A model generated the notes under the pieces. It had not been told where the DNA came from, ran no database searches, and worked only from the letters and a program-made list of their open reading frames with translations. A program made the translations under genes and the position numbers. From Tricharina praecox (Eukaryota), in the NCBI RefSeq assembly GCF_024521635.1, contig NW_026250421.1:1-64000 (forward strand): 64,000 bases of DNA, read 5' to 3'. Positions within the stretch are counted from its first letter, which is position 1. Each line of letters begins with the position of its first letter. Below, one piece after another: positions 7,601 to 17,588 of this stretch.

Positions 7601-10600
7601 GGATCCGAATCAGCCAAAGCCAGGCCATTCGCGACAGTCGAGCAGGTCTACAGCCATTGAGATGTGTCCAAGAGTGATCCACATCTTGGAAGGCGACTCT
7701 CTCAATGTTATGAATCTCAATGACGAGAATCTACCGATTGCTGAGCGGAGTAGGCTGCAACGCGAGCTAAAAGGATCGAAAATGAAGGACGCCTTGGTAC
7801 ACATGGCGGTCAGTGATAACCATTACGACTCTAGCTTATGGTTCCGTATCTTCCCTAGCTTGATTCGGGTCTGTGTCGAGCGTTGCCTCACCACGGTCGT
7901 GCTCTGTCGGGATTTGGTGTGCGGTCGGTTGCTTCAACTGCATCAATCCATTTGCGCTGCCGCTCAGTCGCATACAGCTCCCGCGGCGGGTCCTTTGGAA
8001 ATCGCCCGGCCAGTACTGCGAACACTGCCTCCAACCAGTCCGGAATTGATGATCGAGCAATGGAAACTATACCTCATTGTAGCATGCGCGACCTTGACTT
8101 CGACAGACGGAGAAAGGACAACGCCTCAACCTCACACTCCACAGCACAACCGAATACCATCGAAGAACCAGACACCACTGGCTCCAGTTCATTTGGACCG
8201 TATCACGTCGGCCAGGGCGGTCTTCCAAATGGTGATTCCACTATTGGCCGTTGATAATCTAATGATCCGGGAGGCGGTGGTTTCGGGCCTTGGGAACATC
8301 AACATCAACCTATACAAGACGTTGATCGAAAGCCTGCAACCTACAGTGCTGAAATGGGGAACGGATGATAAGAGGGGGCGCGGAATCCACTCACCGAGAA
8401 GGAACCGTAGACAGGATCGGCTTCGCGCTGAGGTTACGCACGTGTTTCAACTGACGTCGCATTTTCTCCAAAAGGAGGAAGTGTACAAAGACATCTGGAT
8501 TTTGAGACATATGGTTGCCTTTATCAAGGATATGAAGACCTTCCTGAACGATCCGGAGGTTCAGAATGATTGGGAGCACCAGAAACTTCGCCGGTACTTC
8601 TGCGGGCTCACCGAGGAGTTGTACGAGGGTATCAAGAGGACTGACAAGCCGGAGGTTTGGCTACCCTTTGAGGGGAGATATTCCATATTCATCCTGATGC
8701 AAGACTGGTGTGGTCATGGACCCAACTACCAGGTGGTCAAGGAGAGGGAGGATCTGATGCGGAGGTCTCTCATGACCCTCCAACGAGACCTTTCGGACCC
8801 GGGAACCCTTTCGGCAGCGATGGAGATAGAAAAGAGGAATCTGAAGATTGCTGCCTTGAGTGCTATGGCTTCTCTCTGTGTAAGTAGTCTCCTCCCCTAC
8901 ATCCGCGTCAGAGAATACATTGGCTGATGAAACGAAGGCTGGCCCTGTTATGGAAGAAGTCGGCGCCGGAAGCAATGCGATGCTATCGTTCAATTTCGAC
9001 GAGCTTTTCCGATGGATCGAGTCAATCTTTGCAACCCCAAGTGATCGGACACATCGGATCGGTCGAAGGGCACTGAAGAATATCCTCTTGCACAATCAGA
9101 AGACTACTCTTCTCAACGATGCTATACGCTTGTGCTATGTCTACGAGTCATCGTCCAAAGCAACGCAAAGTTACTTTTCGGTCATTTGCGAAGTTCTCAA
9201 AGAGGTCCCGAATTATTTGGATGGCATATGGAAGATCATGACTCTATGTCTCTTCAAGCTCGGAGACGAAAATGCAGATATTCGATTGCAGGCCGCAAAA
9301 CTGCTCAGAGTTACCGAGGAGGGTGAATTCGGCATGTCTCGTGTCCAGGATTTCGAGGTTTCAATATCAGACAAGACGGTGGCTGTGTACAAACGAGCGC
9401 AGTTTCAGCTATCGAAGACGCTTTCGTTGTATTACTGTAATCTCGCCGTCTTCGTCTTCTCGGAGCTCACAATGTTCTTCAATCTCACGGAAGGCAAGGC
9501 ACAGCGTGACATCCTCCATGCGCTATTACCCTGGATCCAACAGATCGATCTTACCTTGGAGCCAAGCGGCGAGCTTTCACCGTCATCATATATGGTTCTC
9601 GCCAACCTTTTTGAGATCACTGTGAAGTTCAGCAGCAAGATTCATAGCGAGATCCAAGCGGTCTGGCAATCCCTCGCAACTGCACCATACATGGGCAACG
9701 TTCAGGTTATCCTTGATTTCATCATCAATCAAAGCTTAGAGCGCCGCGAACAGAGCTTTGTGGAGTTCGGCAAACAGATCATCGTTTTTCTGTCGGAGAC
9801 TCCGGCCGGGACAAAGTTGGTGGAGGCTCTCGCGATCTACTTGCAACCTAAGCTCATGACCATCGCCATGCGTGAGCCCTCGCCGATCCCAGATGGATCA
9901 ATGTTCCCCTATGTCGCCAATTTGAAGGAGGCTGTGCCAGAAGGCGGGAAGCCAACGGGTTTCTCGTATGGTCATCTTGCTATGATTTTGATGGTCGACT
10001 TGCTGGTTGGACCTGTGCCACAGATGGCGGACAAACTCACACTTCTCCTGCAAGTCATCTTTGTGCTGTGGGATCACTATGTACCCCTAGTTCAAGAGCA
10101 GGCGAAGGAGATGCTTATTCACCTCATCCACGAGTTGGTCATTCCGGTCCTTCACGATGAAGAACACCACGAACAACGCCATGCGACCCTCGAGTTCATC
10201 GAGACAGTCCGGCAGAGGGATTCCAAAACCCACTGGAGCTACGACGATATCTCTTCGATAGAAGAACGCGGTCTCCGCGTGCCGGAATCTATGGAGCATA
10301 TGATTTCGTCTGTTCTGGAGATGTTTTCGATCTTCCCAGAGCTCAAGGGCCAATGGGGCAAGATTGCACTTAGCTGGGCTACCACGTGCCCTGTCCGGCA
10401 CCTTGCCTGTCGATCATTCCAGGTTTTCAGATGCCTTCTCACCTCGATCGACCACGTAACTTTGGCGGACATGCTAGCGCGCTTGTCTAATACTATCGCA
10501 GATGATGTGACGGATATCCGGATGTTTGCGATGGAGATCTTGATCACACTCAACGCTATCGTCTCCGAGATGGACGGGGAGTACTTGCTGCAGTATCCTC

Positions 10601-12423
10601 AGCTATTCTGGGCAACAGTGGCCTGCCTGGACACGATCCACGAGGCCGAGTTCATGGAGGCTCTGAGCATCCTGGAAATGCTTCTCGATAAAGTAGATCT
10701 ATGCGATCCCGAGAAAGTCGAATTCATCATGGCGGCATTCCCGCCTAAGTGGGTGGGAACATTCGAGGGATTGCAGGCTTTGATTGACAAGGGCTTGCGC
10801 AGCTCCGTGTGCCTAAAACGGACCATGAGGGTTTTCGACAAGCTCAATGGAATCCCTACGAATGACCTTATGGGGGGCGAGACTCGATTGCTGTATGCGA
10901 CCCTGGCGAATCTTCCTCGGTTCTCGCAGGAGATGGAGGAAGGAACACCGGGGGAAGCTGTTGTGCGCTGCGCCGAATGGCTCAAGTTACTTGCGGAAGC
11001 ACAGGAATCGAAATCATTGGCAAGAGTGATGAGACTCTTCTCTGCGCAGCAATTCAGGTCACGGAAGGACTTTATTCAGCAAACCGTCAACGCCTTGAGA
11101 GAGACCTTCTTCCCGGAATACGAAGCTCAGGCCCTCATCTTCCTAGTTGGACTGCTGTCGAACGAGCTCAGGTGGATGAAGCTTAAGACTATGGAGGTTT
11201 TGACCGTCGTCGTCCCTTACATCGACATGCGGAAGCCCGCTTTCGCCGGTGTCGGTGCAGACCTCATATCTCCACTCCTGCGACTTCTACAAACGGATTA
11301 TGTCGAGCAAGCCCTCGAAGTTCTCGACAAAATGCTTACCATCTCTGGCGGGCCGATGGATCGCCACGTTATGCGCATGAGTATGGGTGGTCGCAACATC
11401 CGCAAGGAGTACGAAAAGACACAGACGCTATTCGGGGTTCCCGACGAAAGCGGCTGGGCTATTCCGATGCCCGCGATCCACGCCGGCATGACTAGAGACA
11501 ATGTACACGCCGTCTTCTATACTTGTCAGGATGCCATCTCGGCAGAGGAATCCGGCGTGGACGCACCACAGACTCCCGATGTCCAATTCCACATGGAGGA
11601 CTATTCCTACACATCGCTACCAGATCGTACGGCGACTATGCTATCCGAGGATGGTCGCGGCGAGGGAGGATTCAGCGATACGGTGCTTCGGCTTGGAGAT
11701 CTGGACGAGTTCTTTGGTGGCCACGACACAGGCACGTCGACGGACGCGGAAGGCGAAACGGTCCCGCAGCTCTACGATACCAGGGTGTTTGCCATCCTCA
11801 ACACTGCCTCCATGGTCCGCACTCCAAGCGTCGCTAGCTTCCAGGCGAGTTTCGGCGAATCAACGCTCTTCCCCTCCTCTTCTACTTCCACGCCCGTAAT
11901 ACGCGAGCGCACACTCCTTGGCGACGATAACCGCCCCGGGATCATGACACCAACGGCGTTCACAGCGCCTGCGCCGCCTCCGATCACTGGTGGTGGAGGA
12001 AGTAGCACAGCTTTCAGAGGGTATGCACCTTTCAGACCATCATCTAGTAGTGCTGCTGCCATCCCCCCATCCTCATCCAATCACTCTTCACCGTCGTCTT
12101 CTCTGTCATACCAAAGCAGCAACTATTTCGGCCAGAACCAGAGGTCATTGGTTAAACAGAAACTAGGTACTAGTTTTGACGAGGCGGCTGAAGCGTCCGA
12201 TCCCGAGAGTTTGCCTGGTGACCTACGGACGGCGACGTCGACGCCGACGAGGGGCAGGAATAGTCCCGAGATTGGTAGTGCTGGCAGTGGCGGGAGCAGT
12301 GGCGGTGCTTTCCTGCTGGACAATCTCCTCGACAAGTTGAAAGACAGTAAGAAGGGGAAGCGGAGTGCGTCTCGTGGCGCGTATGGAAGACCGGATGTTA
12401 CTAGTGTTCCGAGAGGCTTTTGA
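4651..12423 (+). CDS. TAO3: RAM/MOR network scaffold, cell morphogenesis protein (Tao3/Pag1/Mor2, Furry family)
   Basis: Three large ORFs are joined in frame by introns 5911-5966 and 8880-8937, giving about 2550 aa. Motifs: EYALHILFTNFV, YILCRVLIEV, EIESNGLFFLCSQ, WATTCPVRHLACRSFQVFR, LFGVPDESGW. Confidence 0.95.
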
Positions 12424-12739: not shown

Positions 12740-13300
12740 AGATTGTCTCGAAAAGATCGAGCCCATTTTTGGGCCCTTCAGGTTGGAACTTGGCATCAAT
12801 ACCGACACCGGCCCTTTTTTTTAGCCCGGCTGTCCAAATTTTAGAACAGACCGTCGTAATTTTAGGAGATTTAGACCATCACTCGTGTGATGTATCTACG
12901 ACCCACTATTTACGTTTAGACAACGGGACATTTTACGGTTTACCAGGCTTTTTTTTTGTTTTCCTGGCGGCCCTGGCGGCATTGGGGTGCTCAAAAGCTT
13001 GTTTCCCCGCTAATGTAGGCCTTCCGTCACTGGAGCTTTCTTTTGCCTTCTTCCTAACGAATTTGTACATAGCAGATACATAAAATTGACCCCGTTCCCC
13101 AGCATGAGGTTTTCCCGAGCCGCTTAGCCATCCCCGGGGCGGGCCGTTGGATAGCGACAGCTTGTCAGCTTCCCCTCATCTATATTTAGTCCCTGTAGGG
13201 CCAGCTCTGGTCGGAGCTTTGACTTTGGACGAGTTTCAGGTATTTGTGCGGTCTACCATTGGGGTCTATGACGATTTGGAACCAAGAACATATCATACTT
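12740..13300 (-). pseudogene. Possible degenerate coding relic (decayed gene or transposon fragment)
   Basis: Relatively AT-rich tract. One minus-strand frame reads as Lys-rich protein-like sequence interrupted by about five stops. The two plus-strand ORFs (12769-13083 and 13147-13404) share the complementary frame. No family recognised. Confidence 0.25.
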
Positions 13301-13816
13301 ACATTTACCTATACAGTCCCCGCGGGGCCATCAGCGATCCTGCACTGGATTGCTTTTCGATTGGTACTCTAAATGGCTGCTGCCTTCTGATGAAAAAAAA
13401 CTAAAAAACAAAGACAATTCAGCGGTGTCCAATCACCGCTTCCGCTGACCGTTACCGCCTGATAAAATGTTCGCCGGTCGACCCCAAACAGCGTCGCACA
13501 GAAGATATGACACACGTATGTACGGTACTGTGCAGAGGAGGCCTCGTGCGGGGTGTGAGGGGAATTGGACAAAAGGCCAGCCCACCCCCAGCCCCCATTG
13601 CGGACGGTAAAACGTTCAGCATCCAGCATCCAGCAATCTCAATCAAGCACTCGTCCAAACCCTCACTTTCTCGACAAATCACCTCCAAGGCTACATAGAT
13701 AGTCTTTCTGCCTGACCGACGCTAGAGCTTGAGCTTCTATATACTCTACTCGATATAGTAGATAACCAAGTACCTTCAGCCTTAGATACCCGTATTCACC
13801 CCGCACACGAGCAAAA

Positions 13817-16704
13817 ATGTCCAACCTTCCCCCGACGGGCCCACGGCGTTTCACGGGCCCGTGCAGATTCTTCCTCGAAAGCTCCTGCAACTTCGGCGAG
13901 AACTGCAGGTTCTCGCACGACGTCGCTGCGGCGCCGGCAAATAAACAACAGCGACCACCACCACCACCGACCAGAGGTCGGGGTTCGGGACGGCGTCGTG
14001 GAAGGGGCGGCAGACCAGTGCCGACTGGAAATAATTTCCCGACGAACATGAACCCCACCACCACCGGGGCGGCGCAGCTAGAAATGGCGATCAAGGAGCT
14101 TCTGGTTGGTGTCAAGAAGGGGAAAGAGGGGGAGATAACGGTTTGTTTTCCCCGGTGTTTGATATGTGGAGGCTGTGGCTAATGCGGACTTAGAGACGGT
14201 TTGTGGAGCAGCCTCCACGGAAGGAGCCAGAAGAGTCCCCGCACCAAGACAAACTGATGGGCGGGTACATGGCGGTCCGTTTCGGGCCCGGCTTGGAAAT
14301 CTTAACCATCCAGTCCACGGACGTAACCTCGCCTTCGGCGGTGATCGAGGGCCTACCCAAGAACACGTCGATGCAGGAGGCGTTGACTATCGCACGCGAG
14401 TTCAAACCCGATCTGCCGCCGCAGGCGGTGAGGACCTTTGTGCGTGGGGACAAACTGCAGGCAGTGGTGAACTATGACGACGTCCTCGTGGCGGATGCCG
14501 CGATCAAGGCGTTGGATGGAAGGAAGTGGAAAGATGGGACGCTGGCGGCCAGGGCGTTGAAACCCACGAGCGCCAGTGATGATGTGACGAAGATCCAGTG
14601 CTCCTGGTTTCAACCTGCCAAAGCTGCGTATCTGCAGTTCTCGCAACAGAGCGAAGTAGATGCTGCGGTTGCTACGGCTGGAAGGATCAAGGAGATTCGC
14701 GGGCAACGGTATAAATGTCTACCGCAACCGCCGCGGCCGGGGACCCGGTCGCACAGGGTTTTGCTGGTCGGATTGGATCGGGCGACGACTGAAGTTGATC
14801 TGCGCGGTATCTTCACTTTCGAGTCGCTCAATATGAAGGAACCAAAGTTCGATGTCTCCCGCGATGATGTCGTGGCCTATGTTCGCAGCCTCTTTGATGG
14901 GACGAAGATTACAGACTGGAAGATTGTATCCCACCCGGCTGACAGCAAGCAGAGGGTCCTGATCGATGTTGAGAGCGCCGACCATGCCAGAAAATTCTAC
15001 CGGGAGAATGATGGCAAGAAGCATGGCTTCTTGGGTAACACCACACTGAATATCAATCTCTCGTACAACGCTACCTTCCGCATCCCCGTCGACATCTTCA
15101 AGGCGGTCAAGGAAGAGGTGGTAGCTCTGGAGGTGGCCGAGCGGACGAAGGAACGAGAGATTGTGCGCGCAGGAAAAGCGAAGGAGTGGGACGCAGGCGA
15201 CGACTCGCCGGCCCGAGTTGTGATATACGACCGCTACGTGCCAGTAACGGTGCGGATCTTCGGCCGAGGTCGTCCCGCCGTAGTCCGTATCAAAACGGCC
15301 ATGCAAAAGCTGCTCCGCGGCGAGATAGTCTGCGATGAAGACGGACGAGCCATGTGGAATCCCACACTTAAGGGAATCGATGGTCACAAGGTCATGCGCG
15401 AAGTCAAGAACCGTACTGGTGTCCATATCAATCTCGACATCAGGAGCAGGACCATGACGCTTTACGGTACGCAAGAGCAGCGACAAGCGGCAAGGATGAT
15501 ATTGGCGGAGCAGTATCGGCTCCTGCTGGGTCAACAACATGATATCCCTTTGTCGGGACAGTCACTATGGCTTGTGCATCGAGGAGGTCTGGCCGGGGTT
15601 CAGAAACTTCTCGGAGCCGACAAGGTTATACTCGATCTCCCGAACAGGCGTCTCACCGTTACATGCAGCCCTGCGGTGATCGAGGAGGTCAAACGCCTTC
15701 TGCGCCAGCCTGGGGAAATCCATCGCTATGGAGGAGTGATGAACGGGGATGCCGCCACCGGAGGAGGGGAAGACGACTGTGCAGCATGTTTCTCCCCGGC
15801 CGAGCAACCTACCAAACCTCCCTGTGGCCACGTCTATTGCAAGCTCTGTGCGAGCGAGTACATTAACTCGACGATCGATACATCGACCTACCCTATCGTG
15901 TGCTTCGGCAACGAAGGAAACTGCAAAACGCCGTTCCCACTCGCCTTTATCCGCAGCCTCCTCACGAATGCAGATATGGACCGCCACATCACCCAAAGTT
16001 TCTCATCCTACATCCAAACTCACCCAAAAGAGTATCACTTCTGCCCGACGCCCGACTGCGGAACCGTCTACGGCGTGACCACGACCGGCAAAGTCTTCAC
16101 GTGCTCACAATGCTTCGTGGGGATCTGCACCACGTGCTGCACCGAAACGCACGACAACCAGACGTGCGACGAGTTCATGAGCGCGACCAACCCGGAGATC
16201 AGCGAGCAGCTGTTCCAAGGGTGGCGCGGCGAGCACGACGTCAAGAAGTGTCCGACGTGCAAGAGCTACGTCGAGAAGAACGAGGGCTGTCACCACATGA
16301 CGTGCAAGTGCGGCCAGCACTGGTGCTGGCTGTGCTTCGAAACCTTCCCCGACGGCGACCAAACAATCTACGCCCACATCGAGAGCGCGGCGTGTGTCGC
16401 CCGCCAGCGCCAGCAGACGGGGCTGCCGCAGGAGCCACCGCCGCCACCGCCGCCGTGGGAGTACAGGGCGGATTTCTTTGCGGAGCTGGGGCAGGAGGGT
16501 GTGGCCAGGGCGAGGAGGGAAGATATAGAGCGGATTAGACACATCCGCGCCGCCGCCGCCGAGCAGGAGGACGCACGGCGGGAGATGGCGGAACAGTTGT
16601 GGGCTCGCGAACGCCTACGGCGTGAGAGGATACGACAGGCGGATGAGCAAGCGGAACGTGAAAGGAGGAATGCCAGCGGTGGTGGGTTCTGCGCAATCAT
16701 GTGA
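13817..16704 (+). CDS. RBR (RING1-IBR-RING2) E3 ubiquitin ligase with N-terminal CCCH zinc finger, RRM/KH-like domains and C-terminal CaaX
   Basis: Exon 1 13817-14140 encodes CRFFLESSCNFGENCRFSH. Intron 14141-14193 (GTTTGT...GCTAAT...TAG) joins it in frame to the 833-aa ORF. RING1 CAAC..CGHVYCKLC, IBR CPTPDC..CSQC..CTTC..H..C, RING2 CPTC..EGCHHMTCKCGQHWCWLC. Ends FCAIM*. Confidence 0.9.
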
Positions 16705-17137
16705 GAGAGTACCTACGTTGTACTTGTACTCCGCCGCGCGCGGGGTGCCGTTTCTGTTGCCTTCGTACTTGCTCCCTATATTGATCGAGGTTGGAATTTT
16801 CTCTAGCTATCTATCTATCTATCTTATTTATTTTTTCAAATCTGTTGGGTGTGAATTTGTCTTGTTTTGCTTTTGGACCATTCTGTCTGTCTGTCCGGCG
16901 TGGCGATCTGCGAGGAATCTAGTTAGGAATTTGAGTTTTATATTGAGTCAATCATAGGCACTCACTCTACAATTAGCTCAATCACGTGCACGCGTCTTCA
17001 CTCTAGTCAAGCCTTGGTCACTTTACCTTCACGCAACCTCACCACCAACAACACTCTCCACTTCACTTCACTTCACTTCACCACCACCACCCTCACCACC
17101 CTCCTCCACCCACCCCCTCACAACAACCACCACCACC

Positions 17138-17588
17138 ATGTCCCGCCACCACCCTGACCTAGTAATGTGCCGCAAGCAGTCTGGGATCGCGATCGGGCGT
17201 CTCTGCGACAAATGCGACGGCAAGTGTCCGGTATGCGACAGCTACGTGCGGCCGACGACGCTAGTGCGCATCTGCGACGAGTGCTCGTTCGGCAACTACC
17301 AGAACAAGTGCGTGGTGTGCGGCGGCGAGGGCATCAGTGACGCTTTTTACTGCTTTGAGTGCACGCGACTTGAGAAGGATCGCGATGGGTGCCCGAAAAT
17401 TATTAATCTGGGCAGCTCGAGGACGGATTTGTTTTGTAGGTGCTCCCAATTGCGAGCCCCCGGTTCCCAGAATTGCAGACTGCGGAGACGGTGGTGGAGG
17501 CGGTGGTGGAGGTGTAAGAGGGAGAGGGAATACGTGCTAATACATGACGCGAATTGCAGATCAAAAAAAGAACTTCAGGAATCATTGA
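17138..17588 (+). CDS. RDS3: SF3b spliceosome subunit PHF5A/Rds3/Ini1
   Basis: [39 protein letters not shown]...[18 protein letters not shown]. Intron 17436-17559. The last exon gives YQKKNFRNH*. Confidence 0.97.

What the first reader, a model, noticed from the sequence alone, without database searches (positions are those of the whole stretch)
13817..16400. RBR ubiquitin ligase carrying a CCCH-RRM-KH RNA-binding array
Seen: splicing joins a C-x7-C-x5-C-x3-H finger and an RG-rich patch (RGRGSGRRRGRGGR) to the main ORF. That ORF has RRM-like segments (AVVNYDDVLVADAAIKALDG; AAYLQFSQQSEVDAAV) and a KH-like GxxG unit (LKGIDGHKVMREVKNRTGVHINLD...LYGTQEQRQAARMIL). These precede an intact RING1-IBR-RING2 with the catalytic Cys (EGCHHM). 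Established: RBR ligases ubiquitinate through that Cys, and RRM/KH-plus-RBR resembles the non-helicase part of plant DEAH11/12. Inference: an RNA-activated E3 that could serve in RNA surveillance or antiviral sensing. I know of no functional characterisation in fungi.
Basis: partly seen in the sequence, partly recalled or inferred. Interest (0 to 1): 0.75.

Follow-up and report, generated by a model that had tools for sequence, protein, structure and literature searches.

The report
Fungal ubiquitin ligase with membrane tag
This expressed fungal gene encodes a ubiquitin ligase with seven RNA-binding-type domains and a conserved lipid-attachment signal at its tip; it is an unstudied, helicase-less offshoot of an old ligase family and may tag RNA-bound proteins at cell membranes.

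Summary
The gene is real and the splice is shown: RNA contigs from two studies skip the 53-nt GT-AG intron (14141-14193), giving 944 aa. Layout: one CCCH finger, RG patch, three RRM folds, three KH-like domains, intact RING1-IBR-RING2 (catalytic C807). The RRM-KH block alone aligns colinearly with a DEAH-helicase RBR (91.8 bits; shuffles at most 3.2), so this is a helicase-less fungal relative of the Helicase/Plant I (DEAH11/12-type) RBRs. The family is large (760 clusters at 50% identity; Asco- and Basidiomycota), not rare. CaaX marks one Pezizomycete clade (16 of 17 rows) and a separate Agaricomycete group; a single clade is rejected. Against easy RNA sensing: the 'GxxG' is acidic and kept in 12 of 106 rows, and RRM1 lacks RNP aromatics. 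dN/dS is about 0.3 versus at most 0.13 in neighbours, with no sign of positive selection. Best reading: a probably farnesylated, RNA/RNP-recruited E3 at membranes. An antiviral role (ZAP-L/OAS1-p46-like) is plausible (25%) but untested. New variant of a known kind; interest 0.55.

The parts
13608..16928 (+). Extent of the spliced RNA contig in run X1 (lower bound of the transcript; contigs cannot show true ends)
   Evidence: table 8
13817..14140 (+). Exon 1 coding part, residues 1-108
13862..13918 (+). CCCH zinc finger C16-x7-C24-x5-C30-x3-H34
   Evidence: Pfam PF18044 E 1.4e-8; a CCCH exon also lies upstream in L022-L025
13973..14014 (+). RG-rich patch, residues 53-66, in a low-confidence linker
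   Evidence: sequence; pLDDT <50; RG-rich stretches also in L022-L025 exon 1
14141..14193 (+). 53-nt phase-0 GT..AG intron, branch-site-like GCTAAT at 14178
14194..16704 (+). Exon 2, residues 109-944 plus stop
14266..14565 (+). Beta-hairpin plus RRM1 (about 133-232); RNP1/RNP2 aromatic positions not aromatic
14584..15066 (+). Two further RRM folds (about 239-399); inferred nested: a circularly permuted RRM (251-323) inside the third; conserved W246 (91%) and aromatic at 254 (79%)
   Evidence: secondary-structure order, profile; topology inferred, model coordinates not inspected
15067..15318 (+). KH-like domain 1 (about 400-483), no GxxG
15322..15528 (+). KH-like domain 2 (about 485-553) with acidic G-I-D-G loop
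   Evidence: PF24641 E 3.4e-4, PF00013 E 5.4e-4, both under cut-off
15535..15705 (+). KH-like domain 3 (about 556-612), R-G-G loop
15778..15924 (+). RING1 (C637-C685)
15994..16167 (+). IBR (709-766)
   Evidence: PF01485 E 1.2e-12
16249..16395 (+). RING2/Rcat (794-842); catalytic Cys807 codon at 16288-16290, His809
16396..16689 (+). Pro-rich hinge and E/R/Q/A-rich long helix (model helix 875-935); length 88-247 aa in relatives
16690..16701 (+). CaaX box C941-A-I-M944, predicted farnesylation signal
   Evidence: invariant C and M in 10 of 10 first homologues; 19 of 159 proteins end C-x-[IVLF]-M

Best explanation
A cytoplasmic RBR E3 that is brought to RNA or an RNP by its N-terminal half and to a membrane by its tail. 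Shown: the gene is spliced and expressed; the domain order; the intact RING1-IBR-RING2; homology of the RRM-KH block to DEAH-helicase RBRs; conservation of the CaaX box. From established RBR and CaaX chemistry (recalled): RING1 binds E2~Ub, ubiquitin passes through C807 to the substrate; a C-terminal C-a-a-M is farnesylated and favours the cytosolic face of endomembranes or the plasma membrane. Inferred: the rigid 3xRRM + 3xKH array, with the CCCH finger and RG patch replacing the ancestral helicase, binds single-stranded RNA with low sequence specificity and presents RNA-bound proteins (or itself) to RING2; the ~60-residue charged helix is a spacer. Most likely job: ubiquitination of membrane-associated RNPs in general RNA surveillance, with the short-tailed paralogue (P0020) as the soluble counterpart. 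Step odds: active E3 about 0.9, prenylated about 0.8, binds RNA about 0.65.
For: Splice and expression. RBR intact; C807 and H809 invariant in the 97 rows of A5, which I chose for having RING2. RRM-KH block confidently modelled as one unit. Middle-only profile aligns colinearly over residues 1318-1728 of the helicase-RBR P0170, 91.8 bits against at most 3.2 in 200 shuffles, so the ancestor worked beside an RNA helicase. All N-terminal domains after the linker are neutral to basic (+1 to +7). CaaX kept while the preceding tail is unalignable; all 19 end in Met, no other Cys in the last 60 residues; 1 of 1,336 window ORFs ends this way, the gene itself. PARP14 KH1-KH2 binds ssRNA by EMSA (PMC10450202, passage) and DTX3L, whose KH-like domains lack GXXG, binds ssRNA (PMC11460948, passages).
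Against: No binding, activity, localisation or substrate data. No canonical GxxG in any of the three KH-like domains family-wide and no RNP aromatics in RRM1. In DTX3L/PARP9/PARP14 some KH-like domains are protein-interaction modules (PMC11080071). No second membrane signal (no Cys in the six residues before the box; mixed charges), so a single farnesyl may give only weak anchoring. The acidic residue of ARIH2 before the WxC motif is His817 here (at least 90% of A5). HHalign with the shallow alignment A2 against P0170 was weak (probability 8%, E 0.004). The choice of 'general surveillance' over 'antiviral' rests on thin evidence.
Confidence: 0.4

Rival explanations
1. Antiviral sensor-effector: the array recognises mycoviral RNA on replication membranes, where the farnesyl tail places it, and the RBR ubiquitinates viral replication proteins or signals; ZAP-L plus TRIM25 in one chain.
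For: CCCH + CaaX is the ZAP-L design and CaaX is needed for OAS1 p46 to reach viral RNA (PMC10747524, PMC8357416, passages). Nearest Atlas feature hits for residues 130-614 are RBM43/NID/PARP14-RRM clusters (0.75-0.85, lead only). Family turnover: 760 clusters, 0-10 CCCH fingers, a 28-row clade with no RING2 motif, CaaX on two separate branches, a paralogue with a deleted tandem copy in this genome, dN/dS 0.28-0.33 against 0-0.13 in neighbours. Helicase RBRs were lost repeatedly in plants and animals (PMC2904391).
Against: No domain has dN/dS above 0.44; the gene sits in conserved synteny between TAO3 and PHF5 in L022 and after TAO3 in L023; Pfam gives KH_PARP14_8 in only 3 of 64 members and no NID or PARP14 RRM family among the 25 of 47 families listed; no infection data. 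Fast evolution and CaaX are equally compatible with other roles.
Confidence: 0.27
2. The RRM/KH array has become a protein-binding or oligomerisation scaffold; the enzyme is a membrane-tethered E3 for protein substrates and needs no RNA.
For: Degenerate GxxG with acidic third residue, non-aromatic RNP positions; helicase absent; KH-like domains of DTX3L and PARP9/14 mediate dimers and partner binding.
Against: CCCH fingers and RG stretches were gained or kept; W246, the aromatic at 254 and the basic G-R at 278-280 are conserved; domains are net basic.
Confidence: 0.18
3. Same RNA-linked E3, but the CaaX box does not set membrane location (not processed, or used as a protein-contact lipid); the protein acts in soluble or nuclear RNPs.
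For: No second anchor signal; 85 of 159 relatives and the helicase-bearing P0170 end right after RING2 with no tail, so the core works without it.
Against: Strict C-a-a-M retention across proteins down to about 28% identity and on two branches implies recognition by a prenyltransferase.
Confidence: 0.15

Closest known systems
Helicase / Plant I subfamily of RBR ligases (DEAH11/DEAH12-type; Marin 2010, PMC2904391)
   Same: Hairpin-RRM-RRM-RRM-KH-KH(-KH)-RING1-IBR-RING2 in the same order; Pfam KH_DEAH11 and KH_DEAH11_2nd are the commonest KH matches (25 and 23 of 64 members at E<=0.05); P0170 ends in the same H...HGG motif as the short-tailed fungal forms.
   Different: No DEAH/HA2/OB helicase module; CCCH finger(s) and RG patch instead; added helical tail with CaaX. 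I had no named plant DEAH11/12 sequence; the comparison is to Pfam models and to one unnamed helicase-RBR.
DTX3L, PARP14, PARP10, RBM43/NMI/IFI35 (RRM plus KH-like arrays)
   Same: Rigid RRM-KH arrays lacking GXXG ahead of a modifying enzyme; Atlas feature likeness.
   Different: RBR rather than RING-DTC or ART; no macro or WWE domain; homology beyond shared folds not shown.
ZAP-L (PARP13) and OAS1 p46
   Same: RNA-binding protein with a C-terminal CaaX box; CCCH finger as in ZAP.
   Different: Analogy only: different catalytic modules, one CCCH rather than four, no shared ancestry shown.
Ariadne RBRs (ARIH1/ARIH2)
   Same: Closest solved RBR cores (E 2.8e-10).
   Different: No Ariadne domain after RING2; different N-terminus.

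Membership tests
RBR E3 ligases | RING1 (C3HC4)-IBR-RING2 with zinc ligands | tested here: met
RBR E3 ligases | Catalytic Cys (with His two residues on) in RING2 | tested here: met
   C807, H809; aligned to ARIH2; invariant in A5
RBR E3 ligases | Thioester formation and ubiquitin transfer | not testable with these tools
   needs an assay
Helicase/Plant I (DEAH11/12) RBR subfamily | DEAD/DEAH, helicase-C and HA2 domains | tested here: not met
   No such Pfam match in either exon; spliced RNA contigs begin 89-209 nt before the ATG and the upstream gene is TAO3; none in 27 long relatives
Helicase/Plant I (DEAH11/12) RBR subfamily | RRM-KH block homologous and colinear with that of helicase RBRs | tested here: met
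   91.8 bits vs P0170, shuffles <=3.2; KH_DEAH11 models; weak by HHalign with six sequences
Helicase/Plant I (DEAH11/12) RBR subfamily | RBR supradomain groups with this subfamily against the other 13 in a tree | not tested
   No reference set of the 14 subfamilies was at hand
RRM fold | [quoted passage not shown] | tested here: met
RRM fold | Aromatic residues at RNP2-2, RNP1-3, RNP1-5 | tested here: not met
   Absent in RRM1; only the RNP1-5 position of the second RRM is mostly aromatic (254: W45 Y23 F11); RRM3 has F in 31%
Canonical RNA-binding type I KH | Type I KH fold | tested here: inconclusive
Canonical RNA-binding type I KH | GxxG loop without acidic residues | tested here: not met
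CaaX-prenylated proteins | Terminal C-a-a-X, conserved | tested here: met
   CAIM-stop
CaaX-prenylated proteins | Actual farnesylation and membrane location | not testable with these tools
   needs labelling and microscopy
PARP14/DTX3L/NMI RRM-KH group | Sequence homology to NID, RRM_PARP14 or KH_PARP14 models | tested here: inconclusive
   Atlas features 0.75-0.85; KH_PARP14_8 in 3 of 64, best E 0.0034

The most novel reading that the evidence does not exclude
Filamentous fungi have a large, unstudied family of RNA-sensing RBR ligases, derived from the ancient helicase-RBR by swapping the helicase for CCCH fingers, that acts in antiviral defence apart from RNAi; at least two fungal lineages independently added a prenylation tail to aim it at viral replication membranes, converging on the ZAP-L/OAS1-p46 strategy, and Agaricales made RING2-less, multi-CCCH versions that may act as sensors or decoys.
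Probability: 0.25. Interest if true: 0.82.

Novelty: new variant of a known kind. Interest (0 to 1): 0.55.

Why it matters
No function was found in print for the Helicase/Plant I RBRs or these fungal forms in the ten searches run. The fungal forms are half the size, expressed, and in this genome come as a natural pair (with and without CaaX), so they make the open question 'what does an RNA-domain RBR ubiquitinate, and where' directly testable. A CaaX box on an RBR ligase did not turn up. If the antiviral reading holds, fungi would have an RNA-sensing ubiquitin arm of defence that converged on the membrane targeting used by ZAP-L and OAS1 p46.

Tried and rejected
Unspliced reading of exon 1 (ends at a stop after 121 codons): rejected, RNA contigs are spliced. 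Rare or orphan gene: the word-index searches found only 10 and 8 relatives, but the full HMMER scan found 760. Upstream helicase exons: none. Positive selection: pairwise NG86 never above 0.44 per domain; only two relatives, so site-level selection was not tested. Single origin of CaaX: rejected by AU test, though I had seen the first tree before naming the group, and the test cannot exclude an ancient tail lost many times. Viral relatives: the scan of viral contigs could not be run with A3; the BFVD fold search gave only low-TM or single-RRM matches. KH part alone against PDB sequences: one chance hit; no KH or NID chain among 55 PDB hits of A2, which is no evidence of absence. PF24471 in the own genome: nothing rang anywhere, uninformative. 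Contact between the RRM-KH block and the RBR (autoinhibition) remains untested: no complex model was obtained. Run X3 (soil metatranscriptome) laid nothing; contig depths were not used to rank expression. Earlier scan findings: none. Eisenhaber 2007 was not held; Lucas 2006 and Marin 2009 were seen only as references; they may already mention fungal RRM-bearing RBRs. PMC10282164 and PMC3670738 held nothing relevant.

Full report
Gene structure. An ATG at 13817 opens a 108-codon exon; a 53-nt phase-0 intron (14141-14193, GT..AG, branch-like GCTAAT at 14178) leads to an 836-codon frame ending at 16704. The spliced product has 944 aa and equals P0001, annotated in NCBI as a hypothetical protein of Tricharina praecox. 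Of three runs laid, X1 and X2 (two studies; their RNA status is a guess of the tool) each give one contig that skips exactly this intron; both also skip a 146-nt GT..AG piece upstream, X2 skips the PHF5 intron, and neither covers 12804-13406, so they behave as RNA. X3 laid nothing.

RNA-contact residues. In 106 aligned rows the first Gly of the proposed GxxG is present in 13% and the last in 74%; the full G-x-x-G stands in 9 of 16 rows of the close clade, each with D or E third, and in 3 of 90 others. KH1 has no such loop and KH3 has R-G-G. RRM1 has no aromatic at the usual RNP positions; W246 (91%) and an aromatic at 254 (79%) are kept. RNA binding is thus not guaranteed. Published analogues cut both ways: DTX3L's KH-like domains lack GXXG, the protein binds ssRNA and ssDNA, and the authors leave the KH contribution open (PMC11460948, passages); KH-like domains of DTX3L, PARP9 and PARP14 mediate protein contacts (PMC11080071, passages); PARP14 KH1-KH2 shifts ssRNA (PMC10450202, passages).

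RBR core. Zinc ligands, C807 and H809 are in place and align to ARIH2. They are invariant in the 97 rows of A5, chosen from 159 for having RING2; by a plain motif 97 of 159 carry the Cys and 62 gave no match, many being cut gene calls or RING2-less forms. The residue that is acidic in ARIH2 before the WxC motif is His817.

The missed tail. After RING2 come a Pro-rich hinge, a charged helix (875-935) and G-G-G-F-C-A-I-M-stop. C941 and M944 are invariant in the first 10 homologues although the tail before them does not align. Of 159 proteins, 19 end C-x-[IVLF]-M, 85 end within 45 residues of RING2, mostly in an H...HGG motif, 50 have no RING2 motif and 5 have other tails. One of 1,336 stop-to-stop frames of the window ends this way, this gene. 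That C-a-a-M is a farnesyltransferase signal is recalled knowledge; the general rule is stated in PMC8357416 (passages). No upstream Cys or clean polybasic run accompanies it.

Family and origin. A profile of the RRM-KH block alone (six sequences, no RBR) found 760 clusters at E<=1e-3, 431 at 1e-10 and 47 at 1e-30 among 1.84 billion representatives; only the best 150 were seen. The Atlas lists several Ascomycota and Basidiomycota clusters with IBR plus CCCH, RRM or KH_DEAH11. Named members are Pezizomycetes (Sphaerosporella, Tirmania, Kalaharituber, Geopyxis, Pyronema) and Agaricomycetes. None of 27 long members scanned has a helicase domain. A search for long proteins with a similar RBR returned 1 of 76 candidates, P0170: 2,030 aa, DEAD, Helicase_C, HA2, KH_DEAH11_2nd, KH_DEAH11, IBR, no taxon given. 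A deep profile of the fungal middle region, RBR left out, aligns colinearly to its residues 1318-1728 (91.8 bits; best of 200 shuffles 3.2), and it ends in the H...HGG motif. HHalign with the six-sequence alignment gave the same register but only 8% probability. The Helicase/Plant I subfamily is described as ancient, present in unikonts and bikonts and often lost, with fungi left for future work (PMC2904391, passages; soybean members in PMC3904995, passages). The fungal proteins lack its defining helicase, so I file them as a helicase-less relative, not a member.

History of the tail. On a tree of the middle region (153 of 159 rows; six with under 330 matched columns left out), 16 CaaX proteins and one cut gene call form one branch (SH 99) next to short-tailed forms that include this genome's paralogue P0020; two more CaaX proteins (P0089, Marasmius oreades; P0129, unnamed) lie far away with short-tailed kin. 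On 30 chosen rows rooted on P0170, tails excluded, holding the 10 CaaX rows together costs 297 log-likelihood units (p-AU 1.7e-6). With a short-tailed outgroup, two gains are the simplest reading; the tree is a quick one with long branches.

Context and rate. The order TAO3 - gene - PHF5 - Sec7/PH gene is kept in L022, and TAO3 - gene in L023; L024 and L025 show none of these neighbours within the DNA held. Pairwise dN/dS is 0.33 (784 codons, L022) and 0.28 (439 codons, L023), against 0.06 and 0.13 for TAO3, 0.09 for the Sec7/PH gene and 0 for PHF5; no domain exceeds 0.44 (own NG86 script). This is purifying selection, looser than the neighbours'. The genome holds one full paralogue (G000:C25, two CCCH fingers, short tail) followed by an 81% identical copy with most of the middle deleted. 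CCCH counts range from 0 to 10 (zeros include gene calls lacking exon 1).

Mechanism and odds. Best: an RNA/RNP-recruited RBR tethered to membranes by farnesylation, ubiquitinating RNP proteins in general surveillance (0.40). Rivals: antiviral sensor at replication membranes (0.27), as ZAP-L and OAS1 p46 use CaaX (PMC10747524 and PMC8357416, passages); RNA-independent scaffold (0.18); tail not used for membrane location (0.15). The Atlas feature likeness to RBM43, NID and PARP14 RRM clusters (0.75-0.85) is a lead only. 'RNA-activated' is untested.

Literature. Ten searches listed no paper on these fungal proteins or on a CaaX-bearing RBR; most subscription papers are outside the library, Eisenhaber 2007 was not held, and no supplements were read, so gene lists in supplements (for example mycovirus-infection transcriptomes) may hold members unseen. 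Verdict: new variant of a known kind; interest 0.55.

Noticed in passing
window:12020-12165: Both RNA runs hold a short contig skipping 146 nt (GT..AG) inside the open C-terminal part of the TAO3/PAG1 frame (8884-12423), beside contigs that keep it; the shorter side is only 20 letters. Possible alternative splice changing the TAO3 C-terminus.
   Followed up: no
window:17138-17588: PHF5/RDS3 gene directly downstream, 124-nt intron at 17436-17559; in run X2 one contig runs from the RBR gene into PHF5, which shows no single transcript.
   Followed up: partly
G000:C25:150722-152854 (L002, L021): Full paralogue P0020: two CCCH fingers, same RRM-KH-RBR, short H...HGG tail, no CaaX, 31% identical in the middle region. 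The database model adds about 186 upstream residues that look like a separate exon set.
   Followed up: partly
G000:C25:about 154048-155613 (L021:7048-8613): Tandem copy of the paralogue, 81% identical, keeping the CCCH exon and the 3' end but lacking about 1,950 nt of the RRM-KH-RING1-IBR region; probably a decayed duplicate.
   Followed up: partly
P0056, P0073, P0074, P0091, P0112, P0134, P0143 and kin: A 28-row clade (SH 100) with no RING2 motif; 20 or so end within about 20 residues of the IBR, and long members carry 5-10 CCCH fingers; named members are Agaricales. Without the catalytic Cys they could be RING-type E3s, sensors or decoys; gene-model truncation not excluded.
   Followed up: partly
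P0089, P0056: Marasmius oreades has both a CaaX-tailed form and a RING2-less multi-CCCH form.
   Followed up: no
P0077: Leucocoprinus member with 510 residues after RING2 ending in a second partial RING1-IBR-like piece; tandem fusion or mis-joined model.
   Followed up: no
G000:C17:179604-183579: Two other IBR-bearing genes lie about 3.6 kb apart; 18 IBR matches in the genome in all, and none of the other RBR frames read ends in CaaX (exon-wise reading only).
   Followed up: partly
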